IMG/VR virus record: IMGVR_UViG_2877973648_000002
Span: 1 to 44,265 of that record
DNA from: a virus
Lineage: Duplodnaviria > Heunggongvirae > Uroviricota > Caudoviricetes
Strand: one strand, 5' to 3'
DNA: 44,265 bases
Positions within the stretch are counted from its first letter, which is position 1; every line of letters starts with the position of its first letter. Positions 8,935-23,487 of the stretch are shown here, one piece after another. The translations under genes and the position numbers were made by a program. The notes beneath the pieces were generated by a model. That model was given only the letters and a program-made list of their open reading frames with translations, did not search any database and was not told the DNA's origin.

Positions 8935-10422
8935 GTGGACATTAGAGACTGGCTACCAGAATTTCAAGTTTCAGCAGAAACAGATCGGGACTTACAGACC
9001 TATTTTTTTAAGCTACCGGCGATAAAGGATATTATTGAAAGTAGGGCTTGGTTGGTTCTTGGAAGAAAAGGTACTGGTAAAACAGCCATTTATGAACACC
9101 TTAGAAGAGGAAAACCAGCCAATCTCAACGGGTTTTACTCAGTATGTCTAAATTTTAGTGACTATCCATGGCCAGCCCATCAACTTTACAAGGATGCAAT
9201 GGCTGGAGAACTTTCCGCTTATCAAAAAAGTTGGATGTATCTTTTTTATATTAAGGCATTATCTAAACTTATTGAAATAAAAAATGATGCTGGAGAGACT
9301 TTAAACAAAGATCTAACGTGGGCACATAATTATATCAAAACTATCTTTGGTAGTCCCGACCCAACTCTTAGGGAGGTTTTGTTTTCAAAAATAACCAGAT
9401 TAAAAACCATAAAAGGGCCCAGTGCTGGTCTTAATGAAGTATCATTGGACGCAGGTGAAATTTCGTTAGAGGAAGTTGCTGAGAATGCTCAGCTAAAGCA
9501 AAAGCTAAGAGCTAATGCTTTCACATTGCTTACGTATTTTGAAAAAATTTTTAAAGATAACATTGGTAATGAAAAAATAATTATCGCCCTTGACCAATTA
9601 GACGAAAACTGGCTAGAGGGGCAAATTGAAGAATATAGTAAGGTTTTAATAAATCTGCTAAATGTCTGTAGAAACATAGCATCTGATGAACGCCTCAATG
9701 ATAAATTAAAAGTCATTCCCTTCCTACGAACGGATATTTATCATTCTTTGAAATTCAATGATAAAAACAAATTATTGCAAGATAGTGCTATCATAATCTC
9801 ATGGAATGAAAATAATCTAAACGATATGTATTATGAGAGGATAAAGAAATACAAACCTAATGATCTCATATTAGATGACGAAAAGGACAGATCTGGGAAA
9901 GTATTTGAGGTTTCATTCGTTAGGCAGGGGACTCCTCCATTTAAATATATATGTCGCCGTTCTTTCTTTAGGCCTAGGGATATTATTGTCTACTTCAACA
10001 AAATTAGGGCATGTCATAAAAATAATGTCTCAGGTCTTTACACTTCCAATGAGCTTTATGAAGCTGACCGTGAAGCATCTATAAGTGTGTACAATGAGGT
10101 GATTGATGAATGGTCCAACCAATTCCCTGAAATTGAGAACTTACTAACTGTTCTTCAAACTATCCAAGTAGAAACATTCGATTTTAATGATTTTTCCGAG
10201 AAGTGCCGTAATGAATTTGCAGGTATTTCTGATGGGGTGATACGTCAATATATCAACTTCCTGTTTGATAACTCACTTATCGGACAAAAAAAACAAGGTA
10301 GATGGGAATACGTAAGTAGTTTGCCTAACTTAAAAATTAATCTACAAAATGAGTTTAGGACACATCATGCTTTAAAATACAGGTTGCATTTAATAGAAAG
10401 CAGACCGAGCCAAAATATTTAG
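8935..10422 (+). CDS. P-loop NTPase of unknown function (candidate anti-phage defence or abortive-infection gene)
   Basis: 495-aa ORF, GTG start after GAGGA; Walker A LVLGRKGTGKTA near residue 40; Walker B-like IIALDQLDE near residue 215; ~270-aa C-terminal region without recognisable motif; gene and flanks visibly A+T-rich relative to neighbours. Confidence 0.7.
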   Translation: MDIRDWLPEFQVSAETDRDLQTYFFKLPAIKDIIESRAWLVLGRKGTGKTAIYEHLRRGKPANLNGFYSVCLNFSDYPWPAHQLYKDAMAGELSAYQKSWMYLFYIKALSKLIEIKNDAGETLNKDLTWAHNYIKTIFGSPDPTLREVLFSKITRLKTIKGPSAGLNEVSLDAGEISLEEVAENAQLKQKLRANAFTLLTYFEKIFKDNIGNEKIIIALDQLDENWLEGQIEEYSKVLINLLNVCRNIASDERLNDKLKVIPFLRTDIYHSLKFNDKNKLLQDSAIIISWNENNLNDMYYERIKKYKPNDLILDDEKDRSGKVFEVSFVRQGTPPFKYICRRSFFRPRDIIVYFNKIRACHKNNVSGLYTSNELYEADREASISVYNEVIDEWSNQFPEIENLLTVLQTIQVETFDFNDFSEKCRNEFAGISDGVIRQYINFLFDNSLIGQKKQGRWEYVSSLPNLKINLQNEFRTHHALKYRLHLIESRPSQNI

Positions 10423-10499
10423 CTTACATCCATCTCCATTAAGAAATCTTGCTATTGTTCTTATGGATCGTCTTTCTGACTGATTTCATATTGGCGAGG

Positions 10500-10694
10500 T
10501 AACGGTAGTTAAGTAGAATGGCTGCGGGTGCTTGAGGCTATCTGCCTCGGGCATGAACACCAAGGGCAGATAGAGAAAAGCCCCAGTTAACATTACGCGT
10601 CCTGCAAGACGCTTAACATTAATCTGAGGCCAATTTCATGCTAGACACATGTAGGTTAGCCTCTTACGTGCCGAAAGGCAAGGAGAAGCAGGCT
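10500..10694. promoter_or_regulatory. hok/sok-type leader region (hok mRNA 5' UTR, mok overlap, antisense Sok target)
   Basis: Segments GCTTGAGGCTATCTGCCTC and TAGCCTCTTAC match recalled conserved elements of hok mRNA leaders; lies directly upstream of the hok start. Confidence 0.45.
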
Positions 10695-10781
10695 ATGAAG
10701 CAGCAAAAGGCGATGTTAATCGCCCTGATCGTCATCTGTTTAACCGTCATAGTGACGGCACTGGTAACGAGGAAAGACTGA
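10695..10781 (+). pseudogene. hokD: Hok-family type I toxin gene (HokD/RelF-like), truncated after codon 28 by IS3
   Basis: Translation MKQQKAMLIALIVICLTVIVTALVTRKD then TGA supplied by the first bases of IS3; matches recalled HokD/RelF N-terminus. Confidence 0.6.
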
Positions 10782-10808
10782 TCCTACCCACGTAATATGG
10801 ACACAGGC

Positions 10809-11675
10809 CTAAGCGAGGTTCTGGTTTTCAAATTGTTCCGGACTGAGGCCGCCACACCAACTGTGCCGCCGCCACCGATTGTAATCACATTCGATATAAT
10901 TAAATACCGTTGCCCGCATTATTTCCCGGCTGATAAAGTGTTCTCCATGGATACATTCCACTTTCAGCGAATGAAAGAAGCTTTCCACGCAGGCATTATC
11001 GTAGCAGCAACCTTTTGCGCTCATACTTCCACGCAGATTATGCCGCTTCAGTTGCGCCTGATAATCTGCTGAACAGTACTGGCCTCCACGGTCCGTGTGA
11101 ACGATAACGTTCCGGGGCCTCTTACGCCGCCACAGCGCCATCTGCAGGGCATCGCAGGCCAGTTGCGCCGTCATGCGTGGCGACATTGACCAGCCAATAA
11201 CGGCACGTGACCACAGGTCAATGACCACTGCCAGATACAGCCAGCCTTCATCTGTACGTAAGTACGTGATGTCTCCTGCCCACTTCTGGTTCGGGCCACT
11301 GGCGTAAAAATCCTGCTCCAACAGATTTTCTGACACAGGCAGGCCGTGTGCGCGGTAGCTGACCGGGCTGAACTTCCGGGAGGCCTTTGCCCTCAGTCCC
11401 TGACGGCGCAGGCTTGCCGCCACGGTTTTTACGTTAAAGGGGTAACCCTGAGCACGCAGTTCATCCGTCAGGCGTGGGGCACCGTAACGCTGTTTTGACC
11501 GGGTAAAAGCCGCGAGGACAACGCTGTCGCAGTGTTGGCGGAACTGCTGACGCGTGCTTATCCTTGTCCGCCGCTGACACCACGTATACCAGCCGCTGCG
11601 GGCCACCCGGAGCACGCGGCACATTGCTTTGATGCTGAACTCAGCCTGATGTTTTTCAATAAAGACATACTTCAT
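10809..11675 (-). CDS. insF: IS3 transposase OrfB (DDE integrase domain)
   Basis: 288-aa ORF matching recalled IS3 InsF ([32 protein letters not shown]...). Confidence 0.95.
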
Positions 11676-11971
11676 TTCAGGCGCTTCGCGAAGTATGTCG
11701 CGGCCTTTTGGAGGATAGCCAGCTCTTCATCCCGTTCTGCCAGCTGGCGTTTGAGACGTGCAATCTCGGTAGACATCTCCAGTTCACGTTCAGAAGACGT
11801 CTGCTGATTTTGCTGTTTACTGCGCCAGTTGTAGAGCTGTGATTCATACAGGCTGAGTTCACGGGCTGCGGCAGTAACACCGATGCGTTCAGCAAGCTTC
11901 AGGGCTTCACTGCGAAATTCAGGCGAATGCTGTTTACGGGGTTTTTTACTGGTTGATACTGTTTTTGTCAT
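11672..11971 (-). CDS. insE: IS3 transposase OrfA (HTH)
   Basis: [35 protein letters not shown]...; overlaps insF in ATGA fashion, consistent with the IS3 frameshift arrangement. Confidence 0.95.
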
Positions 11972-12036
11972 GTGAGTCACCTCTGACTGAGAGTTTACTC
12001 ACTTAGCCGCGTGTCCACTATTGCTGGGTAAGATCA

Positions 12037-12273
12037 CCTGCAATGACCCCGCTGATGCTGGACACATCCACCCGTAAGCTGGTTGCGTGGGATGGCACCA
12101 CCGACGGTGCTGCCGTTGGCATTCTTGCGGTTGCTGCTGACCAGACCAGCACCACACTGACGTTCTACAAGTCCGGCACGTTCCGTTATGAGGATGTGCT
12201 CTGGCCGGAGGCTGCCAGCGACGAGACGAAAAAACGGACCGCGTTTGCCGGAACGGCAATCAGCATCGTTTAA
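12037..12273 (+). pseudogene. D: Head decoration protein D, 3' fragment beginning at the IS3 junction
   Basis: Translation from the IS3 boundary [78 protein letters not shown] matches recalled C-terminus of lambda gpD. Confidence 0.85.
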
Positions 12274-12291
12274 CTTTACCCTTCATCACTA

Positions 12292-12317
12292 AAGGCCGCC
12301 TGTGCGGCTTTTTTTAC
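12292..12317 (+). terminator. Hairpin plus T-tract between D and E
   Basis: AGGCCGCctgtGCGGCT followed by TTTTTTT. Confidence 0.5.
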
Positions 12318-12328
12318 GGGATTTTTTT

Positions 12329-12604
12329 ATGTCGATGTACACAACCGCCCAGCTGCTGGCGGCAAATGAGCAGAAATTTAAGTTTGATCCGCTGTTTCTG
12401 CGTCTCTTTTTCCGTGAGAGCTATCCCTTCACTACGGAGAAAGTCTATCTCTCACAAATTCCGGGACTGGTAAACATGGCGCTGTACGTTTCGCCGATTG
12501 TTTCCGGTGAGGTTATCCGTTCCCGTGGCGGCTCCACCTCTGAATTTACGCCGGGATATGTCAAACCCAAGCACTTAGCATGGCTTTCTGAGGCTTTCGT
12601 GTAG
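12329..12604 (+). pseudogene. E: Major capsid protein E, 5' fragment interrupted by island insertion
   Basis: MSMYTTAQLLAANEQKFKFDPLFLRLFFRESYPF...GYVKPKH matches recalled lambda gpE N-terminus, then 9 unrelated codons (LAWLSEAFV) and stop. Confidence 0.85.
12564..12573. repeat. attL core (AACCCAAGCA) of the island, within E codons K-P-K-H
   Basis: Identical 10-mer at 23488-23497 at the other junction. Confidence 0.7.
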
Positions 12605-12736
12605 TTGCTGGTTTTTACACTTAATCTTTTGATAATAAAGAATAAGTTTATCTGGCGCTTTCACTGGATTTTCCTCGTTATCTGTGTGTTGCAATCATCT
12701 CTGTATTGCAGCTTGTATTGCTTTTTGGGGCTAAAA

Positions 12737-13972
12737 ATGGCTGGCGAGAACAAACTGAGCGACAAAGCACTTAAAGGATATCTGGGGAAACCCAGAGAAA
12801 AGCAGATCACCATTGCTGATGGAAAGGGGCTTTCTATTCGTGTGAGTACCAAGGGGGCTGTGAGCTTTGTTTTCTTCTACAGGTTAGCAGGTGGCCGGGC
12901 TGCTCCGGTCTGGCTAACGTTGGGTAAATATCCTGATATGTCACTCAAACAGGCAAGGGAAAAGCGCGACGAGTGCCGTGGTTGGTTGGCTGACAAACGT
13001 GATCCGCGTATCCAGATTAAGATTCAGGCTGAAGAACGCTTAAAGCCGGTCACAGTGGAGGATGCACTAAATTACTGGTATGAAAATTACTGTAAGGTGC
13101 GTCGTAAAACTCATGCTGTAACGCTTGGCAGATTTCGAAAGCATATCTTTCCCTATATCGGTCATTTGCCCGTAAATGACACTCACCTATATGAATGGCT
13201 GGACTGTTTTGACCGAATTAAACGTAATGCACCAGTTATGGCGGCGTATGTTTTTTCTGACACTAAATTAGCTCTTCGTTTTTGTCGGGTACGCCAGTAC
13301 GCGACGTGTGATGCTTTAAAGGATTTGCGCATGAGTGATGTGGGGCAGATTGCAGGTAAGCGGGATCGGGTTCTGGATGAAGCCGAACTGGGCCAGCTCT
13401 GGAAGGCAATTTTTGTCGAGCCTGATTTAAAACTAATGTCTGAATACACGCGAAAAATGTTTGTGCTTTGTACAGTATTTGGATGTCGAATGAGTGAAGC
13501 CCGATTATCTGAATGGAGCGAATGGGATCTCGAAAGTTGGGTTTGGACTGTACCAAAAGATCACTCAAAAACTGGTGTTGAAATCGTCAGACCAGTACCT
13601 GAAATTCTACGACAGTGGGTAACGGATGTTCACGAAGAGACAAAACATACTGGTTATGTGCTGGGAAGTCTGCGAATTAGAGAAAGCGTAAGCAAGATTG
13701 GGGGGAAAATCGGTAAACGTTTGGGCCATGAAAAACAATGGTCACTACACGACCTTAGAAGAACGCTATCTACTCATCTAAGTGATCTCGGTGTTGAATT
13801 TTATGTAGTAGAACAACTGTTAGGCCATGCGCTACCTGGCGTGGCAGGTGTTTACAACCGGAGTAAGTTTATGGCTAAAAAACTGGATGCTCTGGAACTC
13901 TGGACTACATATCTCAATAGCATCGCAGGTGCTGATTCAAAAGTGACAATCCTCAAACAAAAGGCTGGTTAA
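12737..13972 (+). CDS. int: P4-type tyrosine integrase of the island
   Basis: 411 aa from the ATG at 12737; catalytic-region motifs (HDLRRT, LGH, Y in GVYNRS); adjacent to attL; the upstream 44 codons of the ORF look non-coding. Confidence 0.85.
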   Translation: MAGENKLSDKALKGYLGKPREKQITIADGKGLSIRVSTKGAVSFVFFYRLAGGRAAPVWLTLGKYPDMSLKQAREKRDECRGWLADKRDPRIQIKIQAEERLKPVTVEDALNYWYENYCKVRRKTHAVTLGRFRKHIFPYIGHLPVNDTHLYEWLDCFDRIKRNAPVMAAYVFSDTKLALRFCRVRQYATCDALKDLRMSDVGQIAGKRDRVLDEAELGQLWKAIFVEPDLKLMSEYTRKMFVLCTVFGCRMSEARLSEWSEWDLESWVWTVPKDHSKTGVEIVRPVPEILRQWVTDVHEETKHTGYVLGSLRIRESVSKIGGKIGKRLGHEKQWSLHDLRRTLSTHLSDLGVEFYVVEQLLGHALPGVAGVYNRSKFMAKKLDALELWTTYLNSIAGADSKVTILKQKAG

Positions 13973-13973
13973 C

Positions 13974-14201
13974 ATGAAAAAAATGGCAATTGTTGATAAA
14001 AAGGGTCTGGAGTACATTCCTAACATCGATCGTATGATCCGTGAGAAAGAATGTCGGGAGCTAACCACTCTTGCAAACAGCACACGCTGGAAGCTGGAGA
14101 AGGAAGGAAAATTTCCTAAGCGGATCAAGATTGGTTCCACTGCTGTTGCATATCGTCTTTCAGAAGTGCAGGCATGGATTCGAGGTGAGTGGGTAGTTTA
14201 A
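13974..14201 (+). CDS. alpA: AlpA-family transcriptional regulator / excisionase-like protein
   Basis: 75-aa ORF starting 1 nt after the int stop; small HTH-like protein in the position AlpA/Vis occupies in P4-like and PICI elements. Confidence 0.65.
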   Translation: MKKMAIVDKKGLEYIPNIDRMIREKECRELTTLANSTRWKLEKEGKFPKRIKIGSTAVAYRLSEVQAWIRGEWVV

Positions 14202-14270
14202 ATTATCTCAGAATAAAATATTATGAATTACTGATTTGAGAATTTGTACTCAAATCAGTAATAACATTCT

Positions 14271-14807
14271 TTATAAGAGATTAAATCCAAATAAAGAGTA
14301 ATCATATACAGGGGTGCATTGCATCCCACTGAATATGCTGATGTTTTTTTCTGTTTCTATCCTTTTTTCAATAAGTTGTTGTATATTTTTACAGTACAAT
14401 TTGTGTGTGATGTTATTATCGTAAGCCTGATATAGCAACGTCAATGTTGACGCTAGGAAACATACAGATAAAATTAAAATAATATATGCAGTTTTTTTAT
14501 TTTTTGTCCATGATCTATTTGTTTGTGAAATATAAAGAATTCTGAGGTGGATAATGGTGAGAGACAATAGCAGGCCACTCAATAAAATAAGTATTGGGTT
14601 TGCGTATTTTATTAATGGTTGAGAGAAAAAAACTATTATAGCTCCTGTGACTGCGTATGAGAAAAAGGAGTGATTAAACTTCTTACTCCTTCTCTCAAGT
14701 ATTTTAATTTCATCTTGTGTGGGGGTTTTAGATGCCTCTAATATAAGTTTATTGAATGTTTCTGTTATCTTGTTTTTTGTGTTTGTGGCTATTTTTTTTA
14801 GATTCAT
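14271..14807 (-). CDS. Hypothetical integral membrane protein (A+T-rich cargo gene)
   Basis: 178-aa ORF with about three hydrophobic helices; strongly A+T-rich; convergent to int-alpA. Confidence 0.5.
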   Translation of the reverse strand: MNLKKIATNTKNKITETFNKLILEASKTPTQDEIKILERRSKKFNHSFFSYAVTGAIIVFFSQPLIKYANPILILLSGLLLSLTIIHLRILYISQTNRSWTKNKKTAYIILILSVCFLASTLTLLYQAYDNNITHKLYCKNIQQLIEKRIETEKNISIFSGMQCTPVYDYSLFGFNLL

Positions 14808-15157
14808 AGCATTCTAACTCCCTTAACTTATTTATTACTTTCTCTTTATGATAAGAGAGGGGAATGACTTGGTAAAGTGATTTGTCATTAATAATGATAA
14901 TCCTTGCGATAAATATTTCTGCAAGTTATTTATCTGTTTGTTGCTATCTTGTTAAGCGTTGGGTGTGGTTTATGTTTGGAGCGACTTTATTTAATCGTGA
15001 TTTTATGGATTTATATTTATATCCTGTAAGATAAGCGCATGTTAGTTCAGGAGTAGTGTCAGATAAAATTATTCGGAGTAGAACTACCTTTTCTGTTTAT
15101 TGCCAGTATTTACATAGCAATGCGCCGTAGTTACTCACATCACGGCGCTGATACTAA

Positions 15158-15460
15158 TTATTCAGATTCTTTGGCTTTACGCCGCTGGAGTTCTTCACGA
15201 GCGACGGCTACGAGTTGCCCGATTTCCTCCGCTGCCTTGATGCCGATTTGTTCGACCTTAGCTAAGGCATCCAGTGAAGACACGAGGGGATTTTCTCCGC
15301 TTCCTTCTGCCTGGCGGCGGGCGATCTCACCGCGCATGGCGGTTACTATGAATCCGGCGTTGCTTTCGCCGTCCAGTTTTACGGATTCCATGCCCTCCAT
15401 AACATCGTGGGGAACCCTGATCGTTGTCATTTGCGATTTTGCATTTTTGTATACAGACAT
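15158..15460 (-). CDS. Ribbon-helix-helix-type transcriptional regulator (probable island repressor)
   Basis: 100-aa ORF; segment MTTIRVPHDVMEGMESVKL consistent with an RHH beta-strand/helix; divergent from an operator-rich promoter region. Confidence 0.5.
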   Translation of the reverse strand: MSVYKNAKSQMTTIRVPHDVMEGMESVKLDGESNAGFIVTAMRGEIARRQAEGSGENPLVSSLDALAKVEQIGIKAAEEIGQLVAVAREELQRRKAKESE

Positions 15461-15480
15461 AGTTAATCACCAATTTGTTA

Positions 15481-15582
15481 TGTGTATATCACTATACACA
15501 AAAGTGAGATATAAAAACACTTGCAATGTATATCACCACAATATAATGTATATCTCACATTATGGTCGCTATGTATCTCACA
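15481..15582. promoter_or_regulatory. Operator array and promoter of the island
   Basis: Palindrome TGTGTATATCACTATACACA (15481-15500); repeated ATGTATATC/ATGTATCTC boxes; TTGCAA (15521-15526) and TATAAT (15542-15547). Confidence 0.5.
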
Positions 15583-15668
15583 ATGATCGATTCATAAAAA
15601 CGACGAAACCCGGCAGTGCGCGAACACTAACCGGGCTTCTAACCAAACCGTTAAACGAGGTAACGACT

Positions 15669-16034
15669 ATGGCTGGAACACAGCATACCCAAACTCACCC
15701 TAAATTTATATACATCTTTCTGGCGCTACATCGCGATCGCATAGCAGATGGAGCAACTACGGTACATGTAGCCGCTGACACGCTGGTTGATGCCCGCAAG
15801 ATGGTTAAGGAGATGGGCTATACTGCGGCTTTCTGGAAAGGGCGGGAAGAAAACACGCTGTTTATTCAGAAATGTGAAAACAATTTCATCTGGCGTTTTA
15901 TCGCCCTGAGTACGGCACAACCGCGCGTGATTACCATCGAGGCCACCAGCGAACAGGAAGCCCGCCAGCAATCCCCAACTGGCTGCGTGATGATATTCGC
16001 CGCCCGTATTCGTCAGGAGGTGTGCCATGAATGA
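15669..16034 (+). CDS. Hypothetical protein (first gene of island rightward operon)
   Basis: 121 aa from the ATG at 15669 with GAGG RBS; the annotated 304-aa ORF is over-extended across the operator region. Confidence 0.5.
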   Translation: MAGTQHTQTHPKFIYIFLALHRDRIADGATTVHVAADTLVDARKMVKEMGYTAAFWKGREENTLFIQKCENNFIWRFIALSTAQPRVITIEATSEQEARQQSPTGCVMIFAARIRQEVCHE

Positions 16035-16251
16035 TCTTTATTTTAAAGTGCTGACACATGCTGAAAACGCGCTCGTTTGTGGCAAAAATATGCGAGAAAT
16101 CTTATCAACCTGGCTTGATGGGACAACAAATGCGGAACACGATGAACGGGATGCTAATTTAGCTGGAGCGTTAATTACGTTACTTGATCCTGTCATCAAA
16201 GAGCTGGATGAAGCTATAAAAATACACGACCAGAGCTATACCGGAGAATAA
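16027..16251 (+). CDS. Hypothetical protein
   Basis: 74-aa ORF overlapping the previous stop; acidic. Confidence 0.45.
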   Translation: MNDLYFKVLTHAENALVCGKNMREILSTWLDGTTNAEHDERDANLAGALITLLDPVIKELDEAIKIHDQSYTGE

Positions 16252-16253
16252 AA

Positions 16254-16541
16254 ATGAAAAATAAATTTTCTGGCTTTATTGCCAGCGGTCAAACTCATTC
16301 AAAAATCAGCCTTGGGGATATTTTCAAAGATAGCTATGGCTATCGAGTAAAGATTATTTCGGTTGATGATCGCCGTGTCTCTTATTTGCGTGATGGTTAT
16401 GATTTTGAATGTGTTATGCCGCGTCAGCAGTTCGAAAGAGATTTCATTCTGGTAAAAAATTGCAAGACAGATAATCAGAGGCGTGCCGCAGGCTATATCC
16501 GCAAAATTCGGGCAATGTTAGTTGCCGGAGGTAACAAATGA
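16254..16541 (+). CDS. Hypothetical protein
   Basis: 95-aa ORF tightly packed between neighbours. Confidence 0.45.
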   Translation: MKNKFSGFIASGQTHSKISLGDIFKDSYGYRVKIISVDDRRVSYLRDGYDFECVMPRQQFERDFILVKNCKTDNQRRAAGYIRKIRAMLVAGGNK

Positions 16542-18358
16542 AACGTGCTCCGAACTTAAAATACCAACCGCGCGACAAAATGACAGAAGTCATCATTTTT
16601 GCTGGCAGTGATGCCTGGAGCCATGCAAAAGAATGGAATGAATGGGCGGGTAAGCATATTGCAGCAGATGATACACCACCAGTAATTCTGGGTACGGAAC
16701 AACTGGAAAACCTGGATGATATGCAAATTATCGATGAAGGCCGTCATTATGTGCGTGTTTATCGTGCCGGAAAGATCGCAGAGAAAAATCTGACGAAGGT
16801 TGCGACATTACTTGCTATTGCAGGCGTAAAGGAAGCACGTTGTTACCGTAGCTTTGTTGATCGAGAGCCTGAAGACTGGACTCCGCGCCTTGTCGGCCTA
16901 AAAGCTGAAGCGGAGCATGGGGAAAGTCTGGTGATTGAACTGCCAGTGAAGAAGGCAGAGCGCAAAAATGACGAGCGTGCTTCATCTTTGGCGTTGAATC
17001 AGATGGGGGCCAGCCAGCGCGGTGAAGTTCTCCTGGCACATTACGGCGGCGAACTGGCAATCAATGCCGACTCTGACACCGTTCATCATTACAACGGCGT
17101 TGTATGGGAGCCGGTTCAGGATAAAGAGTTACAGCGTGCTATGGCGCAGATTTTCATTGATGCGGAGATCAGCTATTCGCAGAACGCCATTAAATCGGCG
17201 GTAGATACCATGAAGTTAAGTTTGCCTGTAATGGGGAATACAGCCCGTAACCTGATTGGATTCAGTAACGGGGTATTTGATACCAGAACAGGTAATTTTC
17301 GGGAGCATAACAAAAACGACTGGTTGTTAATTGCCAGTGAATTACCTTTCAGCCCACCAGCAGAGGGGGAAACGCTGGCAACACATGCGCCGAATTTCTG
17401 GAAGTGGTTGCGCCGTTCGGTGGCTGAGAATGACCGCAAGGCAGATCGCGTACTGGCGGCATTATTCATGGTGCTGGCGAACCGGTACGACTGGCAGTTA
17501 TTCATTGAGGTAACAGGGCCGGGGGGAAGTGGTAAAAGCGTGATGGCGGAGATTTGCACCATGCTGGCGGGTAAGGCTAATACAGTATCAGCAAGCATGA
17601 AGGCGCTGGAAGATGCAAGGGAACGTGCGTTAGTGGTTGGCTTTTCGCTGATTATCATGCCGGATATGACCCGCTACGCTGGTGATGGGGCAGGGATTAA
17701 GGCCATTACAGGCGGTGACAAGGTGGCAATTGACCCGAAACACAAAGCCCCCTATTCAACGCGTATTCCGGCAGTAGTGCTGGCGGTTAACAATAACGCC
17801 ATGTCATTCAGTGACCGCAGCGGGGGGATCTCACGTCGTCGGGTGATATTCAATTTTTCGGAAGTTGTACCGGAGAACGAACGCGATTCGATGCTGGCGG
17901 AAAAAATAGAAGGTGAGCTGGCGGTAGTGATTCGTCATCTGCTTACACGGTTTGCTGATCAGGACGAAGCCAGACGCCTGTTATATGAGCAGCAGAAATC
18001 TGAAGAAGCACTGGCGATAAAGCGAGAGGGGGATTCGCTGGTGGACTTCTGCGGCTATCTCATGGCATCGGTAATGTGTGATGGCCTGTTAGTGGGTAAT
18101 GCTGAAATTGTGCCATTCAGCCCACGCAGGTATCTCTATCATGCCTATCTGGCTTATATGAGGGCACATGGGTTTGGTAAACCTGTAACACTGACGCGCT
18201 TCGGTAAAGATATGCCGGGGGCAATGGCGGAATATGGCAGGGAGTATATGAAACGGAAAACGAAGCACGGTTTGCGTTCAAACGTGACACTGACGGAGGA
18301 ATCAGAAGACTGGATGCCATCATGTGTATCGGTCACTAATGACGATAGCAAAAATTAA
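16538..18358 (+). CDS. Primase/helicase-type replication protein (D5/P4-alpha-like SF3 NTPase)
   Basis: 606-aa ORF; Walker A VTGPGGSGKS; Walker B-like LIIMPDMT; overall resemblance to phage/plasmid primase C-terminal helicase domains; followed by iterons. Confidence 0.75.
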   Translation: MKRAPNLKYQPRDKMTEVIIFAGSDAWSHAKEWNEWAGKHIAADDTPPVILGTEQLENLDDMQIIDEGRHYVRVYRAGKIAEKNLTKVATLLAIAGVKEARCYRSFVDREPEDWTPRLVGLKAEAEHGESLVIELPVKKAERKNDERASSLALNQMGASQRGEVLLAHYGGELAINADSDTVHHYNGVVWEPVQDKELQRAMAQIFIDAEISYSQNAIKSAVDTMKLSLPVMGNTARNLIGFSNGVFDTRTGNFREHNKNDWLLIASELPFSPPAEGETLATHAPNFWKWLRRSVAENDRKADRVLAALFMVLANRYDWQLFIEVTGPGGSGKSVMAEICTMLAGKANTVSASMKALEDARERALVVGFSLIIMPDMTRYAGDGAGIKAITGGDKVAIDPKHKAPYSTRIPAVVLAVNNNAMSFSDRSGGISRRRVIFNFSEVVPENERDSMLAEKIEGELAVVIRHLLTRFADQDEARRLLYEQQKSEEALAIKREGDSLVDFCGYLMASVMCDGLLVGNAEIVPFSPRRYLYHAYLAYMRAHGFGKPVTLTRFGKDMPGAMAEYGREYMKRKTKHGLRSNVTLTEESEDWMPSCVSVTNDDSKN

Positions 18359-18364
18359 ACTTAT

Positions 18365-18601
18365 GGAATAACTGTTCACCACTGTTCACCCTGTCATAAA
18401 TATCTTTTATATCAGTATATTATAGGGTGAACAGTTATTTATGAACTGTTCACCAAACTATTCACTGTTCACCTTTTTGATTGTTTATTGAGCTTCAAGG
18501 GTGAACAGTGGTGAACAGTTGGTGAATAGTTTTTGTGAAACTGTTCACCCATTAACATTATGAATTAAAAGAGAAAATATCAAAAGGTGAACAGGTGAAG
18601 G
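18365..18601. repeat. Iteron cluster / putative replication origin of the island
   Basis: About 10 copies of CTGTTCACC / GGTGAACAG in both orientations, including tandem pairs, flanking an A+T-rich spacer. Confidence 0.7.
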
Positions 18602-18645
18602 GTTAAAACGCAAAAATTTTAATTTACTGCTGTGAGATAAAGCCT

Positions 18646-18891
18646 ATGACAGCGAAGCACACAAAAAAATCACAATCGCACGCCCTTGATTTGACGGAAC
18701 ACTGGTTAAGGGTGTCGATAAAAATCATCGACCGCAACGCCGGGGAAGGATACGCGAAAGCACATCCCGAACTGATTAGCGCATTCATGACAACGGCGGC
18801 TGCAAACTTTGCCACTCTGACCGAACGGGAGATTGCTGAAGCGGAGGAAGTGACAACAATCAATATTAAGTCCGGAGAGCAGGCAGCATGA
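18646..18891 (+). CDS. Hypothetical protein
   Basis: 81-aa ORF overlapping the start of the SSB-like gene. Confidence 0.4.
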   Translation: MTAKHTKKSQSHALDLTEHWLRVSIKIIDRNAGEGYAKAHPELISAFMTTAAANFATLTEREIAEAEEVTTINIKSGEQAA

Positions 18892-19337
18892 CGGCGCAAA
18901 TATCAGTTTACGGGCGGTTGGTGGACGACCCGCAGACAAAACAGACCAGCAAGGGCACCCCCATGACGCTGGCGCGTATGGCGGTATCACTGCCCTGCAG
19001 TCAGTCGGATGACGGTCAGGCGACGATGTGGTTATCTGTCCTGGCGTTTGGCAGACAAGCCGACGCGCTGGCAAAGCATCACAAAGGCGAACTCCTGAGC
19101 GTGGCGGGTAACATGCAGATGAGCCAGTGGACTGGACAGAACGGCGAAACGCGGCAGGGCTGGCAGGTTATCGCAGACAGCGTAATCAGTGCGCGATCGG
19201 TGCGACCGGGCGGCAATAAAGGCCAACAGGGGCAGGCTACTGACGCACTGAACAGAGCAAAACAACAGGCAGATCAGCAAGGAAGCCAGCCACCAGTGGG
19301 AGATAATGAGCAATGGGGAGATGATATCCCGTTTTAA
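18888..19337 (+). CDS. ssb: Single-stranded DNA-binding protein (SSB-like)
   Basis: 149-aa ORF with OB-fold-like N-terminus, Gly/Gln-rich linker and C-terminal acidic tail ending DDIPF as in bacterial SSB. Confidence 0.7.
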   Translation: MTAQISVYGRLVDDPQTKQTSKGTPMTLARMAVSLPCSQSDDGQATMWLSVLAFGRQADALAKHHKGELLSVAGNMQMSQWTGQNGETRQGWQVIADSVISARSVRPGGNKGQQGQATDALNRAKQQADQQGSQPPVGDNEQWGDDIPF

Positions 19338-19355
19338 ATATTGCCAATAAAAAAA

Positions 19356-19380
19356 GGCCGGAAAAAATAAATTTTCCGGC
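19356..19380. terminator. Hairpin after ssb
   Basis: GGCCGGAAAA...TTTTCCGGC stem; A-tract upstream, so U-tract on the minus strand; no T-tract downstream on the plus strand. Confidence 0.35.
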
Positions 19381-19554
19381 ATGCTACATAAATCCCGACC
19401 AAAGGGAGTGAAGATATTAACACTAATTTTCCGCACTGAAGTTGTCACCCCAAAACTTTATACAACATTGCACTCGGTTGCATGTATTCGCATGACAAAT
19501 ATCGGTGATAGCATATATCCACAATTATTTTTAATGAATGCAAAGAGGATGCGT

Positions 19555-20595
19555 ATGGTTGATTTATATTCGCCTACTCAGCTTGTACAGGTGGTTAATG
19601 CTGTAGATGTACAAAAACAACTAAATGCGTTGTTTACCAGTTTGTTTTTTACTCGCTCGGTAATGTTTGAATCGCGCGATATTATTCTTGATACAATCGA
19701 CGATCCAAATATCCCAATTGCAGCGTTTTGTTCTCCTATGGTGGGTAGTAAAGTTTCACGTGACGAAGGGTACGAATCAAAAACAATTCGTCCAGGCTAT
19801 ATGAAGCCGAAAAGCAGCATTGATCCAAATAAGTTAGCTGTGCGCCCTGCTGGTGTATCACCTGAGCAATACAATGCTTTTGGGGCGCGTAATATTAAAG
19901 TTAAACAGGCGATTGTAAATCAAGCTAAAGCTATTCGTGCACGTATTGAATGGCTTGCTGTTCAGGCAATCACAACGGGGAAAAATATCATTGAGGGCGA
20001 TGGTATTGAACGTTATGAGCTGGACTGGAATATTAAACCACAAAATATCATCACTCAGTCTGGCGGTGCTGAGTGGTCAGGTAAGGATAAAGAAACTTTT
20101 GATCCAAATGATGATATTGAGAGCTACGCAGAATTTAGTGAGGGCGTCACTAATATTATCATTATGGGCGGTAATGTATGGAAGAAATACCGTTCATTCA
20201 GAGCGATAAAAGAGGCTCTGGATACCCGTCGTGGTTCTAATTCCGAACTGGAAACGGCCCTTAAAGACCTTGGTGATTCGGTGAGTTTTAAAGGGTATAT
20301 GGGCGATGTTGCGATTGTTGTTTACAGCGGGCGTTATACCGACGAGGACGGAACAGAAAAACATTTCCTTGATCCTGATTTGATGGTGCTTGGCAATACG
20401 GCTCTTCAGGGGATTGTCGCCTATGGCGGTATTCAGGATCCGGAGCTAATCCGAATGGGGCTGACTAAAGCCGAACTTGCACCGAAAAACTATATTGTGC
20501 CTGGTGATCCGGCTATTGAATATGTGCAGACACATTCAGCACCACAGCCAATACCGGCCCGCATCAATCGTTTTGTTACCGTTCGCATTGGCTAA
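19555..20595 (+). CDS. Major capsid protein, diverged lambda gpE homologue
   Basis: 347 aa from the ATG at 19555 (AGAGG RBS); alignable by eye along its length to lambda gpE (e.g. GYMKPKSSIDP vs GYVKPKHEVNP; RRGSNSELETALKDLG...GDVAIVVYSG nearly identical). Confidence 0.8.
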   Translation: MVDLYSPTQLVQVVNAVDVQKQLNALFTSLFFTRSVMFESRDIILDTIDDPNIPIAAFCSPMVGSKVSRDEGYESKTIRPGYMKPKSSIDPNKLAVRPAGVSPEQYNAFGARNIKVKQAIVNQAKAIRARIEWLAVQAITTGKNIIEGDGIERYELDWNIKPQNIITQSGGAEWSGKDKETFDPNDDIESYAEFSEGVTNIIIMGGNVWKKYRSFRAIKEALDTRRGSNSELETALKDLGDSVSFKGYMGDVAIVVYSGRYTDEDGTEKHFLDPDLMVLGNTALQGIVAYGGIQDPELIRMGLTKAELAPKNYIVPGDPAIEYVQTHSAPQPIPARINRFVTVRIG

Positions 20596-20604
20596 GGGGG
20601 AGCA

Positions 20605-20946
20605 ATGGCTACTCATTACACTGAACTCATGGCTGGCACTGAAGCACTGGTGACTACGCTGGGGATATTTTCAGCTAATAAAGGGGTAATTCCTGCATTT
20701 ACGCCACTGATGCAGGAAGATGCAACAGGTGCACTGGTAGTATGGGATGGTTCGAGCGTAGGTAAAGCGGTTTATGTTTCCGCTGTACAAATCGACACCG
20801 CGAAAAAAACACAGGCTCAGGTCTATAAGACAGGTGTCTTAAATGTTGATGCTCTGAACTGGCCTGAGTCTGTTAAAGAACTGTCAGTAAAGGTTGCAGC
20901 GTTTGTTGGCTCAGGTATTTCTGTTCAGCCGCTGGCTCGTGTGTAA
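20605..20946 (+). CDS. Head decoration protein, lambda gpD homologue
   Basis: 113-aa ORF; VVWDGSSVGKAVYVSA and C-terminal region parallel gpD ([18 protein letters not shown]). Confidence 0.7.
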   Translation: MATHYTELMAGTEALVTTLGIFSANKGVIPAFTPLMQEDATGALVVWDGSSVGKAVYVSAVQIDTAKKTQAQVYKTGVLNVDALNWPESVKELSVKVAAFVGSGISVQPLARV

Positions 20947-20957
20947 AGGGGGATACA

Positions 20958-21341
20958 ATGCAGAATGATTACAATGACCTTAAGCCAATTGCCGAAATGA
21001 TGTACCCGAATCAAGCTGTAGAGGAATTAAAAGCTATCGCTGACAAAATGTGTTTAAGCGAGCGCCTTGTTGATATGAATCAGGTGATGGAAATTACAAC
21101 CCTGAGTCGTCGTACACTGCTAAACCTTGAGGCTAGTGGAGAGTTCCCGGAGCGTGTGCAGGTTACGGAAGGGCGTAAGGCCTGGTATTTAAGTGAAGTG
21201 ATCGACTGGATAAATAATATTCCTCGCGCTTCTGAATATTGCCGCGTACCTGTCCCAAAAAAGCCAGATGCGGCGCTATGCCTCAAGATTGAGCGTGTAC
21301 GCCGCAATGCACGGGATGGTCGCTATAAGCTGATTGGTTGA
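20958..21341 (+). CDS. AlpA-like HTH protein (second copy)
   Basis: 127-aa ORF; central segment MNQVMEITTLSRRTLLNLEASGEFPERVQVTEGRKAWYLSEVIDWI resembles the AlpA/phage-regulator HTH. Confidence 0.5.
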   Translation: MQNDYNDLKPIAEMMYPNQAVEELKAIADKMCLSERLVDMNQVMEITTLSRRTLLNLEASGEFPERVQVTEGRKAWYLSEVIDWINNIPRASEYCRVPVPKKPDAALCLKIERVRRNARDGRYKLIG

Positions 21342-21583
21342 TGAAATTAGGGCCCGCTCTGGCTGGCGGGTCCTTTCCGGCGATCCAGAACGTTACGGGG
21401 CGTCAGGCGCGCAGATTCTTGCTATTTATGACAATTTTCTGCGATTTGCCGTTTCTGTTCTTCTTCGTTGTAACTATATGTTATTAATGGAAATGCCACC
21501 TAAAAAGAAAGGAAATGGTAAGCGCTATTTTGAGCTAAAAACAGCTTAACCGTTTCCTTTCTCCAAAATTTACTGAGGCGGCT

Positions 21584-22009
21584 ATGAATCCATGCGCAGA
21601 AGTCATGACAACTATCAAACTAAGCGGATCTTTAGCTTCTTTGTTCGCCAGAGAACATCAGCGCCTTATCGGTCCGACGCGTGAGGCATTAAGGGTATTA
21701 TCAGCCACTATTCCGGGATTTGAGAAATTCATGAACACTAGCAAGGCTTGAGGACTCACTTTCGCCGTGTTTGTGGATAAAAATAATGTCGCGCAGGATG
21801 ATCTCGATTTTCCAAATGGTGGTCGTACGATTCGAATTGTTCCGATCATTATGGGGAGTAAGCGTGCTGGTGTTCTGCAAACCATTCTTGGCGCTTTCTT
21901 GGTGGTTGGTGGTGTTCTGGGGGCAACGATAGGGCAAGCATGGAGCGGTGGTGTGTGGAGCGGCAAGTATTTTCTATTGGCAGAAGCCCATTCCGCCAAG
22001 ATAGGCTAG
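21584..22009 (+). pseudogene. Tail assembly protein I-like gene, interrupted by stop/frameshift
   Basis: 21584-21751 encodes MNPCAEVMTTIKLSGSLASLFAREHQRLIGPTREALRVLSATIPGF... (parallels the lambda gpI N-terminus) then stop; homology resumes in another frame at 21767-22009 (TIRIVPIIMGSKRAGVLQTILGAFLVVGG). Confidence 0.45.
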
Positions 22010-22104
22010 ACGTATAAGATCGGTTACAATCTATAAATCAGCTGTTGAATTATTGAATTTTAACCATATTTATCAGATGGACTTCATTCAAAAAGGTAAC
22101 TTTG

Positions 22105-22791: not shown

Positions 22792-22983
22792 TTTAATAAA
22801 TTCTAAAAGGGCTGTTTGGGTAGTATTTTTATGGGGCTCTTCAATTAAAAGGAGTCATAGGGTCAAACGATGTGCCTATGACTCCTGGATAAAGCCATCA
22901 GAGAATATTAGTGTTAACAATTTCTCTTCAGCCCTTGTTTATACGATGCCAGCTTCAGAACCGAATCAACGCTCATGCGATCT

Positions 22984-23271
22984 TTAGCATCTCGGTAATG
23001 ACAGTAAGTTATTATTCCATCGACCATCAGCATAAGTACGTATAAATTTCCGCCCTCCCCCTCCTGGATCAACGACACCTACATCAGCACGTTTGCCATA
23101 ACTATCAGTGACATAGAAAGTATGTAACTTGTTCTCAATTGAATTAACTACATCTGCCACAGTCCACTTACTTCCAGGGGGATTAAATTGAGGGCTTCCC
23201 ACATGAGTAATGTGTTCATGAAGGGCGTTCGAACTGGAGAGAGTAATACAAGTTAATCGTACATCAACCAT
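22984..23271 (-). CDS. Hypothetical small protein (island cargo)
   Basis: 95 aa from the ATG at 23271 with AAGGAG RBS; glycine-rich loop DPGGGGRK; convergent with the 228-aa gene. Confidence 0.45.
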   Translation of the reverse strand: MVDVRLTCITLSSSNALHEHITHVGSPQFNPPGSKWTVADVVNSIENKLHTFYVTDSYGKRADVGVVDPGGGGRKFIRTYADGRWNNNLLSLPRC

Positions 23272-23487
23272 CTTCAACTCCTTATTTACTGTGAAAAATC
23301 ATAAGATACAGCATGTATCGAAATACAGCAGGGTGAACAATTTCGATTTACGAGGACTTAGCAAAGTCTCTTTCTCTTAAACTGAGGGCTTGTATTGCAG
23401 GTTGTATTGCAACTGTAGCTAAGCAATATCAGTTGTAAGCTTTATTTCTTTTACAGTCAATCGTATAGCATCGTATTTGACTCATGT

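What the first reader, a model, noticed from the sequence alone, without database searches (positions are those of the whole stretch)
14271..14807. Strongly A+T-rich membrane-protein gene between island int-alpA and the regulator
A 178-aa protein with about three predicted helices and a Lys/Asn-rich N-terminus is encoded on the opposite strand between alpA and the RHH regulator. Its composition differs sharply from the island core. Small membrane proteins in this position often act in superinfection exclusion or as abortive-infection effectors.
Basis: inference. Interest (0 to 1): 0.45.

Follow-up and report, generated by a model that had tools for sequence, protein, structure and literature searches.

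The report
Orphan membrane-protein cargo gene in satellite
A real, A+T-rich gene for a three-helix inner-membrane protein of unknown family fills a swappable cargo slot of a phage satellite lodged inside a prophage capsid gene; related satellites carry known anti-phage genes in that slot, so it is a good but untested candidate for a phage-exclusion protein.

Summary
Positions 14271-14807 (-) encode a 178-aa protein with three hydrophobic helices. The gene has 30% G+C against 44% for the island.

- **Host element.** It is a ~10.9-kb helper-embedded PICI satellite of the published E:Phage_cap_E:80 type, inserted at codon ~80 of a lambda-E-like capsid gene.
- **Variable slot.** The gene lies between alpA and an RHH (YlcI/YnfO-like) regulator. 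Islands with >=96-99% identical flanks carry a putAbiC protein, a CAP12-type TIR protein (PADLOC PDC-S35) or DUF2971+SWIM there instead.
- **Family.** The protein matches no Pfam, PHROG, PADLOC, NCBIfam, PDB or BFVD entry. An exhaustive search of 1.84 billion representatives found 11. These relatives share 24-38% identity, three helices, a QPLxKxxNP loop and two invariant cysteines in the C-terminal tail.
- **Where relatives occur.** They are solitary, mostly A+T-rich genes. Six of the nine contexts are prophages, mobile-element remnants or this satellite, one is an Abi-rich defence island, and two are ordinary Pseudomonas chromosome.
- **Topology.** The positive-inside rule gives N-in/C-out, which puts the best-conserved parts in the periplasm.

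Best reading: a prophage-state, single-gene exclusion protein acting at the inner membrane. It is analogous to P22 SieA but not homologous to it. The function is inferred, not shown. It is a new candidate family in a known kind of locus, of moderate interest.

The parts
14271..14807 (-). CDS of the 178-aa three-helix membrane protein (the finding). RefSeq annotates it as a hypothetical protein, WP_089617502.1.
   Evidence: ORF and translation. RefSeq annotation. Beyond chance. Distant homologues.
14818..14824 (-). Shine-Dalgarno AAGGGAG, 10 nt upstream of the ATG.
   Evidence: Read directly from the sequence.
14848..14876 (-). Sigma-70-like promoter candidate TTTACC-17-TATCAT, about 40 nt upstream of the ATG. 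This is a consensus match only.
   Evidence: 9 of 12 matches. The number of such sites in the region is not above shuffles, so the site is inferred.
14227..14262 (.). Perfect 14-bp inverted repeat with an 8-nt loop, lying between the converging stops of alpA and the ORF. It is a candidate bidirectional terminator.
   Evidence: I2, 100% complementary.
14199..15118 (.). The A+T-rich cargo unit ('moron') proper: terminator hairpin, ORF and a ~310-bp upstream region.
   Evidence: Homology to sister islands stops at 14192-14198. Homology of other PICIs to the ylcI module starts at about 15117-15119 (rows H42-H66). G+C is 31%.
15122..15148 (-). Stem-loop GCGCCGT-N13-ACGGCGC just after the regulator's stop codon. 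It is a weak terminator candidate separating the regulator from the ORF.
   Evidence: Read from the sequence. The pattern scan did not call it.
15158..15460 (-). YlcI/YnfO-family RHH regulator (100 aa), upstream of and co-oriented with the ORF. It is swapped together with the cargo in sister islands.
   Evidence: phrog_6522, 1.7e-61; annotation; about 30% identity to the regulators of the other cassettes.
13974..14201 (+). alpA, the left conserved border of the slot.
   Evidence: (Phage_AlpA 2.8e-15).
12737..13972 (+). Satellite tyrosine integrase.
12564..12573 (+). attL core AACCCAAGCA inside the lambda-E-like capsid gene, at codon ~80 (...GYVKPKH|).
   Evidence: The site name E:Phage_cap_E:80 comes from PMC10111431.
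23488..23497 (+). attR core AACCCAAGCA. The capsid gene resumes here (KPKHEVNPQMTLRR...). The island is about 10.9 kb.

Best explanation
The gene is an independently acquired accessory gene (a 'moron'). It occupies the variable slot between alpA and the RHH regulator of an 11-kb helper-embedded PICI satellite.

**The protein.** It is a small inner-membrane protein with three transmembrane helices.
- The N-terminal ~46 residues and the basic loop 96-107 face the cytoplasm.
- The short QPLIKYANP loop and the ~48-residue C-terminal tail, which carries two invariant cysteines (probably a disulfide), face the periplasm.

**Proposed mechanism (inferred).**
- The gene is expressed in the quiescent satellite state. 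It lies in the regulator's transcription direction, probably with its own promoter.
- It acts alone.
- It excludes superinfecting phages at the cell envelope. The most likely route is interference, from the periplasmic face of the inner membrane, with the phage genome-delivery conduit or with the host membrane component that conduit uses. P22 SieA, T4 Imm and HK97 gp15 work this way.

**Shown:** gene reality, architecture, family conservation, slot variability and mobile or defence contexts.

**Inferred:** topology, the disulfide, timing of expression and the anti-phage activity itself.
For: 1. **Real protein family under constraint.** Relatives at 24-38% identity keep three hydrophobic helices. 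Invariant residues are P64/P71/G78/C139/Q143/F159/C164. Shared motifs are QPLxK(Y/F)xNP and C..(L/I)Q...EK(N/A)(S/A).(I/A)F..(M/L).C. These hold even in 50% G+C Pseudomonas genes. Two E. coli alleles differ by a patch containing a compensated -1/+1 indel pair that restores the frame.
2. **The slot is a cargo hotspot.**
 - The flanks stay 97.7-99.3% identical (int-alpA side) and 92.9-98.7% identical (icd-primase side) while the interval changes.
 - Alternative contents are putAbiC (Pfam 2.8e-16), a CAP12/Pycsar-type TIR protein (Pfam 1.2e-33; PADLOC PDC-S35 6.9e-67) and DUF2971+SWIM.
 - All of these are A+T-rich, at 30-37% G+C.
 - Census in 5426 E. coli genomes: this int-alpA occurs in 176-179, the three-helix cassette in 67-68, TIR in 37, DUF2971+SWIM in 33 and putAbiC in 11.
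 - PICIs are reported to carry immune systems at their 5' or 3' ends (PMC11364771).
3. **Homologues are solitary genes with no conserved neighbour.** Their contexts are:
 - an opposite-strand moron in an Enterobacter lambdoid late operon;
 - upstream of the lysis cassette of a Citrobacter P22-like prophage;
 - the int-proximal accessory region of an Edwardsiella prophage;
 - prophage or integrase remnants;
 - a defence island between AbiJ (1.7e-21), DUF2971 and AbiP (3.2e-13).
4. **Topology and conservation.** Loop 2 is net positive with no acidic residue in 11 of the 12 family members. The N-terminus is basic in the window's protein (+11/-5) and in most, but not all, members. The C-tail is about neutral and holds the two family-conserved Cys in every member. 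The most conserved regions are loop 1 (0.65), TM1 (0.50) and the C-tail (0.49). The N-terminus (0.30) and loop 2 (0.30) are least conserved. The constrained surface is therefore periplasmic.
5. **Analogy with P22 SieA.** SieA is 162-164 aa, has three predicted transmembrane helices, is an inner-membrane protein, is sufficient alone and blocks DNA injection (PMC10883804). Its gene has 33.7% G+C and lies downstream of, and co-oriented with, the RHH repressor mnt, with its own promoter. That layout matches this one.
Against: - There is no experimental datum.
- The other occupants of the slot and the neighbours of homologue P0019 are abortive-infection-type genes, not entry blockers. Guilt by association therefore points as much to Abi as to exclusion.
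- Topology rests on hydropathy and the positive-inside rule only, and TM1 is marginal (1.65).
- The promoter is a consensus match of no statistical weight.
- Two Pseudomonas homologues lie in ordinary-looking chromosomal contexts.
- Among E. coli alleles the variable patch is in TM2, the cytoplasmic loop and TM3, not in the periplasmic parts. There is thus no sign of an arms race on the proposed interaction surface.
Confidence: 0.4

Rival explanations
1. Abortive-infection effector. The membrane protein senses infection, through its cytoplasmic N-terminal amphipathic helix or through membrane stress. It then permeabilises or depolarises the inner membrane and kills the infected cell before phage release.
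For: - Alternative cargo in the same slot is Abi-type: putAbiC, CAP12-like TIR and DUF2971.
- Homologue P0019 lies between AbiJ, DUF2971 and AbiP genes.
- There are weak, sub-threshold matches of the window protein to 2TM effector domains: DUF4231 at 0.012 and Saf_2TM at 0.038.
Against: - The 2TM-effector matches are far below the gathering scores and occur in only 1 of 12 family members, so they are probably compositional.
- No sensor domain and no conserved partner gene were found.
- The cytoplasmic parts are the least conserved, whereas the periplasmic loop and the Cys-containing tail are the most conserved.
Confidence: 0.2
2. Orphan immunity protein or another lysogenic-conversion function. 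It would be an inner-membrane immunity factor against a membrane-targeting toxin (pore-forming bacteriocin, T6SS or CDI effector), or an envelope or stress-tolerance factor, carried as cargo.
For: - Size, three to four helices and A+T-richness resemble pore-forming-colicin immunity proteins (established knowledge).
- Pseudomonas homologue P0020 lies about 3.4 kb from a pyocin-S/immunity pair.
- Homologue P0010 lies near an Imm42 gene.
Against: - No cognate toxin is adjacent in any of the nine contexts examined.
- No member matches any immunity family in Pfam or NCBIfam.
- The slot's alternative contents are anti-phage types.
Confidence: 0.15
3. A satellite life-cycle function. The membrane protein would tune lysis timing or interfere with the helper, as the membrane protein LidI of the Vibrio PLE satellite does.
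For: - Satellites are known to encode small membrane proteins that alter helper lysis (established knowledge: PLE LidI).
- The Citrobacter homologue lies just upstream of a holin-endolysin cassette.
Against: - The gene is absent from about 60% of islands with the same integrase and replication modules. It is therefore dispensable for the satellite cycle.
- It points away from the alpA-to-late direction.
- Homologues occur outside satellites and away from lysis genes.
- There is no holin or antiholin family match.
Confidence: 0.08
4. Decaying or functionless horizontally acquired DNA. The ORF would be kept only by hitch-hiking and silenced (for example by H-NS) because of its A+T-richness.
For: - G+C is 30%.
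- About 3% of database copies are frameshifted at A7 tracts.
- No function is known.
Against: - Full-length 178-aa copies are recorded on more than 1500 contigs.
- An open frame of this length is about 8e-7 likely by chance.
- Distant homologues keep their motifs, including the invariant cysteines.
- A compensated indel restores the frame.
Confidence: 0.04

Closest known systems
P22 SieA (superinfection exclusion A; inner-membrane blocker of DNA injection)
   Same: - Similar size (162-164 aa against 178 aa) and three predicted transmembrane helices.
- SieA is a single gene that is sufficient on its own.
- The gene is A+T-rich relative to its element: 33.7% against about 47% (established value for P22) in P22, and 30% against 44% here.
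- It lies downstream of, and co-oriented with, an RHH regulator (mnt in P22, YlcI-like here), with its own promoter.
   Different: - There is no detectable homology (hhalign probability 0.16%).
- SieA's conserved motif FxRYPxEAxxFNK is predicted to be cytoplasmic. Here the conserved motifs and the Cys pair are predicted to be periplasmic.
- The host element is a satellite, not a phage.
- Function here is untested.
Phage 'morons' that encode envelope exclusion proteins (HK97 gp15, T4 Imm, lactococcal Sie2009, S. thermophilus Ltp)
   Same: - It is an independent unit of deviant composition with a terminator hairpin and a promoter-like site.
- It shows presence/absence polymorphism between otherwise near-identical elements.
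- It is a small envelope protein.
- It lies in the lysogeny-side module near int and the regulator. Ltp resides within the lysogeny module (PMC3952083). Sie2009 lies between repressor and integrase (own knowledge).
   Different: - It is unrelated in sequence to all of these.
- It is larger and has more helices than gp15 or Imm, and it is not a lipoprotein like Ltp.
Defence or accessory hotspots of phage satellites (PICI 5'/3' ends; the P4 hotspot of Rousset et al. 2022)
   Same: Conserved core genes flank an interval with mutually exclusive, A+T-rich cassettes. These include recognised defence candidates: PDC-S35 TIR and AbiC/AbiP-like (PMC11364771; PMC9122126).
   Different: - Here the slot lies in a helper-embedded PICI of the E:Phage_cap_E:80 type.
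- Its describing paper calls this interval the dynamic 'Bro zone' and does not discuss defence or membrane cargo (PMC10111431).
- In sister islands of the same integrase type the regulator is exchanged together with the cargo.

Membership tests
P22 SieA family | Sequence homology, including the conserved motif FxRYPxEAxxFNK | tested here: not met
   hhalign of family profile A1 against P22 SieA gave probability 0.16% and E 0.38. The motif is absent from the sequence. Motif taken from PMC10883804.
P22 SieA family | Inner-membrane protein of about 160 aa with three transmembrane helices | tested here: met
   Hydropathy gives three segments in the window protein and in all relatives. AF2 gives an all-helical model with pLDDT 83.6. 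Localisation itself was not testable.
P22 SieA family | Blocks DNA injection; sufficient alone | not testable with these tools
   Needs phage plating and DNA-entry or K+-efflux assays.
Moron (independent accessory transcription unit in a phage or satellite) | Nucleotide composition different from the surrounding element | tested here: met
   The gene has 30.2% G+C against 44.4% for the island, and is the lowest of all island genes. The same trend holds in 7 of 8 homologue loci.
Moron (independent accessory transcription unit in a phage or satellite) | Present or absent between otherwise near-identical elements, with sharp boundaries | tested here: met
   Boundaries lie at 14192-14198 and at about 15117 or 15616-15633.
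Moron (independent accessory transcription unit in a phage or satellite) | Own promoter and terminator | tested here: inconclusive
   There is a perfect 14-bp hairpin after the stop codon. The promoter-like site matches 9 of 12 positions, but such sites are not enriched over shuffles. No transcript data exist.
Satellite (PICI) defence-hotspot cargo | Located in an interval of variable content flanked by conserved core genes | tested here: met
   Four alternative cassettes lie between alpA and the icd/primase module. Census.
Satellite (PICI) defence-hotspot cargo | Other occupants of the interval are recognised defence genes | tested here: met
   TIR cassette: PADLOC PDC-S35 6.9e-67 and Pfam CAP12-PCTIR_TIR 1.2e-33. 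putAbiC: Pfam 2.8e-16. The DUF2971 and SWIM matches to PADLOC are only weak.
Satellite (PICI) defence-hotspot cargo | The gene itself confers phage resistance | not testable with these tools
   No PADLOC model matches it. An experiment is required.
2TM / SLATT-type abortive-infection effectors | Match to the domain models (DUF4231/SLATT, Saf_2TM) | tested here: not met
   E 0.012 and 0.038, with 14-16 bits against cut-offs of 24.7-29.5. Only 1 of 12 family members matches.
Other membrane exclusion, immunity or lysis families (SieB, RexB, T4 Imm, colicin immunity, holins) | Match to the Pfam, NCBIfam or PHROG model | tested here: not met
   Whole-library scans of the protein and of all 12 family members gave only sub-threshold compositional hits.
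Helper-embedded PICI, site E:Phage_cap_E:80 (the host element, not the gene) | int-alpA at the left end, primase/SSB replication zone, captured late genes, and insertion co-oriented within codon ~80 of a lambda-E cognate with a duplicated core | tested here: met
   Gene order. E is split after ...KPKH and resumes KPKHEVNPQ..., with core AACCCAAGCA at both ends. Definition from PMC10111431.

The most novel reading that the evidence does not exclude
The protein founds a previously unrecognised single-gene anti-phage family, absent from PADLOC, Pfam and PHROGs. Its members would be three-helix inner-membrane proteins that use a disulfide-stapled periplasmic helical tail to stop genome entry of (probably lambdoid) phages.

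On this reading the alpA|RHH-regulator interval of helper-embedded PICIs is an undescribed defence hotspot. The cargo and the satellite's regulator are exchanged together as one cassette.
Probability: 0.35. Interest if true: 0.55.

Novelty: new member of a known kind. Interest (0 to 1): 0.42.

Why it matters
**If the protein does exclude phages.**
- It adds a compact, single-gene envelope-level defence family. It occurs in 68 of the 5426 complete E. coli genomes searched (about 1.3%) and in prophages of Enterobacter, Citrobacter, Edwardsiella and Yersinia. No current defence-annotation tool recognises it.
- It also shows that helper-embedded satellites, which sit inside their helper's capsid gene, use the alpA-proximal slot to carry immunity cargo. 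That would benefit both satellite and helper.
- The conserved periplasmic Cys-pair tail offers a tractable handle on how inner-membrane proteins block phage DNA delivery. This is still poorly understood even for P22 SieA.

**If it does not.** It remains an ordinary orphan cargo gene.

Tried and rejected
- **Family libraries.** Pfam, PHROGs, PADLOC and NCBIfam were scanned with the protein and all 12 family members. Only sub-threshold compositional transmembrane hits came back. The DUF4231/SLATT and Saf_2TM hints were rejected because they occur in 1 of 12 members and lie far below the cut-offs.
- **PDB by sequence.** Nothing was found.
- **Homology to P22 SieA.** Rejected.
- **Sequenced phages.** tblastn of the protein and of the prophage homologue P0022 against 50,697 phage genomes gave no match.
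- **A conserved partner gene.** Upstream neighbours in the Pseudomonas loci and the defence-island locus are unrelated to each other, so this is a single-gene system.
- **Type II toxin-antitoxin pair (RHH antitoxin plus membrane toxin).** Judged unlikely. A ~350-bp gap with a hairpin separates the two genes. The same regulator type occurs in other PICIs without this ORF. Homologues of the ORF occur without any RHH neighbour.
- **Regulatory RNA in the 350-bp spacer.** Rfam found none. The only hit in the neighbourhood is a sub-threshold symR-like match elsewhere.
- **Other dead ends.** The search for related loci on genome contigs failed because no stretch was conserved enough. A literature search for the protein accessions found nothing.
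- **dN/dS between alleles.** Uninformative outside the recombinant patch because there are too few changes.

Full report
**1. The observation**

The ORF at 14271..14807 (- strand) exists exactly as described (178 aa).

It is not a chance ORF.
- The 956-bp A+T-rich stretch 14202-15157 has a stop probability of 0.076 per codon on that strand.
- This gives P of about 8e-7 for 178 open codons.
- None of 2000 shuffles reached 178 (mean 67, maximum 145).

A good Shine-Dalgarno (AAGGGAG) lies 10 nt upstream of the ATG.

G+C is 30.2%, flat across codon positions. The island has 44.4%, and its other genes range from 40 to 58%.

Kyte-Doolittle analysis gives three hydrophobic segments: about 47-66 (peak 1.65), 70-94 (2.24) and 106-128 (2.37). 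The N-terminal 46 residues are basic (K+R 11, D+E 5; 9 K, 5 N).

Two AlphaFold2 models are all-helical. The second was built on a 19-sequence alignment and has mean pLDDT 83.6. Its helices are 3-26, 31-61, 63-68, 71-94, 100-147 and 152-161.

**2. What the surroundings are**

The window is 100% identical to E. coli AREA_C483.

The gene belongs to a ~10.9-kb phage satellite with this gene order:
- int (12737-13972) and alpA (13974-14201);
- the ORF;
- a YlcI/YnfO-type RHH regulator (15158-15460, - strand);
- an icd-like gene, a DUF4222 gene, a D5-type primase and SSB;
- its own major capsid and decoration genes, an HTH gene and a few accessory genes.

The satellite is inserted inside a lambda-E-like major capsid gene.
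- E is cut after ...GYVKPKH and resumes with KPKHEVNPQMTLRR...
- The core AACCCAAGCA is present at both junctions, at 12564-12573 and 23488-23497.

This is the 'helper-embedded PICI' of Tommasini, Mageeney and Williams 2023, site E:Phage_cap_E:80, whose prototype is called 11capE (PMC10111431). That paper calls the interval after alpA a dynamic 'Bro zone'. It does not discuss defence or membrane cargo.

**3. The slot is a cargo hotspot**

Sister islands keep the flanks and replace the interval.
- The left flank (int-alpA, up to 14192-14198) is 97.7-99.3% identical.
- The right flank (icd-primase, from 15616-15633 or 15879) is 92.9-98.7% identical.

The alternative contents are:
- a putAbiC protein (Pfam PF16872, 2.8e-16);
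- a CAP12/Pycsar-type TIR protein (Pfam 1.2e-33; PADLOC PDC-S35, 6.9e-67);
- DUF2971 plus a SWIM protein.

Each cassette comes with its own diverged RHH regulator, about 30% identical to this one. All of the alternative cargo genes are A+T-rich, at 30-37% G+C.

| Feature | Genomes (of 5426 complete E. coli genomes) |
|---|---|
| This int-alpA | 176-179 |
| Three-helix cassette | 67-68 |
| TIR cassette | 37 |
| DUF2971+SWIM cassette | 33 |
| putAbiC cassette | 11 |

Adjacency to this integrase was verified only in the exemplars.

Two further observations separate the ORF from its neighbours.
- Islands L006 and L013 keep int-alpA-ORF-regulator but have a different replication module.
- Other PICIs share only the regulator module, starting at about window 15117-15119 just after a hairpin, and have other small genes between alpA and the regulator.

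The ORF's own unit is therefore about 14199-15118. It contains:
- a perfect 14-bp hairpin shared with the converging alpA (14227-14262);
- the ORF;
- about 310 bp of upstream DNA with a sigma-70-like site TTTACC-17-TATCAT (14876-14848). This is a consensus match only.

PICIs are already known to carry immune systems at their 5' or 3' ends (stated in PMC11364771).

**4. The protein family**

Nothing matches in Pfam, PHROGs, PADLOC, NCBIfam or PDB sequences.

A word-indexed search of 5.8 billion proteins found only copies that are at least 82% identical. All named members in the cluster look-up are E. coli, apart from a few Klebsiella entries.

An exhaustive HMMER pass over 1.84 billion representatives found 11 proteins with E < 1e-3. 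The distant ones are 148-175 aa and 24-38% identical. A third search added a subfamily in Yersinia, Edwardsiella and Citrobacter.

Alignments show:
- invariant P64, P71, G78, C139, Q143, F159 and C164;
- a QPLxK(Y/F)xNP motif between helices 1 and 2;
- a C-terminal motif HDxYCxxLQ...EKNSxIFxxMxCR.

All members checked have three hydrophobic segments.

Charge and cysteine pattern:
- The loop between helices 2 and 3 is net positive with no acidic residue in 11 of the 12 members.
- The N-terminus is basic in the window's protein and in most, but not all, members.
- The C-tail is about neutral and holds the two family-conserved cysteines in every member.

The positive-inside rule therefore gives N-in/C-out. 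This places the conserved loop and the Cys-pair tail in the periplasm, where a disulfide can form (inference).

| Region | Mean column conservation |
|---|---|
| Loop 1 | 0.65 |
| TM1 | 0.50 |
| C-tail | 0.49 |
| TM2 | 0.47 |
| TM3 | 0.33 |
| N-terminus | 0.30 |
| Loop 2 | 0.30 |

Structure searches returned nothing specific.

**5. Where the relatives live**

| Homologue | Organism | Context |
|---|---|---|
| P0022 | Enterobacter | Opposite-strand gene inside a lambdoid late operon, next to a Mu-F-like head gene |
| P0080 | Citrobacter | P22-like prophage, between the nin-type region and the holin-lysozyme cassette |
| P0078 | Edwardsiella | Prophage accessory region near HigBA, xis and int |
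| P0073 | Yersinia | Next to prophage remnants |
| P0010 | metagenome | Next to an integrase fragment and umuDC |
| P0019 | unknown | Defence island between AbiJ (1.7e-21), DUF2971 and AbiP (3.2e-13), plus a methylase |
| P0020, P0018 | Pseudomonas | Ordinary chromosomal surroundings |

The gene is lower in G+C than its locus in 7 of 8 cases. No neighbour is conserved. This is the distribution of a self-sufficient moron.

**6. Evolution within E. coli**

Alleles are nearly identical except for one patch at nt 234-357 (codons 78-119: end of TM2, cytoplasmic loop, start of TM3).
- The patch is about 30% divergent.
- It contains a -1/+1 indel pair that restores the frame after 10 codons.
- This looks like a recombination tract in the least constrained part of the protein, with reading-frame maintenance.

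Full-length 178-aa copies are recorded on more than 1500 contigs.

A minority of copies are frameshifted at the A7 tracts (nt 310-316 and 458-464). They give 110-, 130-, 168- and 183-aa products. The cause could be sequencing error or slippage.

**7. Mechanism**

The closest functional analogue is P22 SieA.
- It is 162-164 aa, with three predicted transmembrane helices, and is exclusively an inner-membrane protein.
- Its gene is also A+T-rich (33.7%).
- It lies downstream of, and co-oriented with, the RHH repressor mnt, with its own promoter.

The two proteins are not homologous (hhalign probability 0.16%).

*Most likely reading (confidence 0.4).* It is a prophage-state, single-protein exclusion factor acting from the periplasmic face of the inner membrane. 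The reasons are:
- The constrained surface of this family is periplasmic.
- The protein needs no partner.
- It lies on the regulator (maintenance) side of the satellite.
- Relatives are classic morons.

*Main rival (0.2).* An Abi-type membrane effector is favoured by the company the gene keeps. It is disfavoured by the lack of a sensor or partner and by the poorly conserved cytoplasmic parts.

*Less likely.* Orphan toxin immunity or other lysogenic conversion (0.15), a satellite lysis or interference role (0.08), and junk DNA (0.04).

**8. Verdict**

The host element and the idea of satellite hotspots are already known. The protein family is uncharacterised and unrecognised by defence-annotation resources. 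I rate it a new member of a known kind (candidate exclusion or defence moron), with interest about 0.42.

Noticed in passing
window 12564-23497: The whole island is a helper-embedded PICI inserted at codon ~80 of a lambda-E-like capsid gene, with core AACCCAAGCA at both ends. It carries its own major capsid (19555-20595) and decoration (20605-20946) genes. It matches the published E:Phage_cap_E:80 / '11capE' type.
   Followed up: yes
window 8935-12604: The helper prophage is degraded. An IS3 element (10809-11980) abuts a truncated hokD and a head-decoration gene that lacks its N-terminus. No portal or terminase genes precede the split capsid gene, unlike loci L003-L005. The satellite therefore looks stranded in a defective helper in this strain.
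   Followed up: partly
window 8935-10422 (+): A second strongly A+T-rich gene (32-37% G+C) lies in the prophage. It encodes a 495-aa 'P-loop ATPase, Sll1717 family' protein, matching phrog_13260 (7.6e-34) and, weakly, PADLOC PDC-M28C (4e-5). It is possibly another defence moron.
   Followed up: partly
window 21334-23271; L002 19739-20881: The 3' end of the island is a second variable region. Here it holds four small genes (71, 80 and 228 aa, and a DUF3892 gene on the - strand), none with a PADLOC hit. In E. coli IAI39 the same position holds a 380-aa TIR-domain protein.
   Followed up: partly
window 15602-15674 (-): There is a sub-threshold Rfam match to the SymR antisense RNA (33.6 bits against a gathering score of 61; E 6.8e-4). 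It lies antisense to the start of the icd-like gene (15669-16034). It may be an antisense regulator, as in the P1/P4 immunity systems, or it may be chance.
   Followed up: no
window 15466-15561: The regulator/icd divergent intergenic region holds direct and inverted repeats. These are ATCACCA..TATATCAC twice, AATGTATATC twice, AAAGTGAGATATA/TATATCTCACAT and TTATGTGTATA/TATACACAAAA. They are candidate operator sites for the RHH regulator.
   Followed up: no
window 14271-14807, ORF nt 310-316 and 458-464 (A7 tracts); also an A8 tract at nt 9-16: Database variants of 110, 130, 168 and 183 aa are frameshifts exactly at these homopolymer tracts, in about 3% of contigs. They could be homopolymer sequencing errors or slipped-strand on/off switching.
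   Followed up: partly
ORF nt 234-357 (codons 78-119), window vs L006/L013: A ~120-nt mosaic patch is about 30% divergent inside an otherwise >99% identical gene. It contains a compensated -1/+1 indel pair. It looks like a gene-conversion tract from an unsampled, more distant allele.
   Followed up: yes
L003-L005 vs window 14199-15633: In sister islands of the same integrase type, the RHH regulator (59-64 aa there, 100 aa with a C-terminal extension here) is exchanged together with the cargo gene. This suggests that regulator specificity and cargo travel as one cassette.
   Followed up: partly
L014 (phage P22) 2337-3771: P22 sieA lies downstream of the RHH repressor mnt on the same strand with its own promoter. 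This is the same layout as the YlcI-like regulator followed by the three-helix ORF here.
   Followed up: yes
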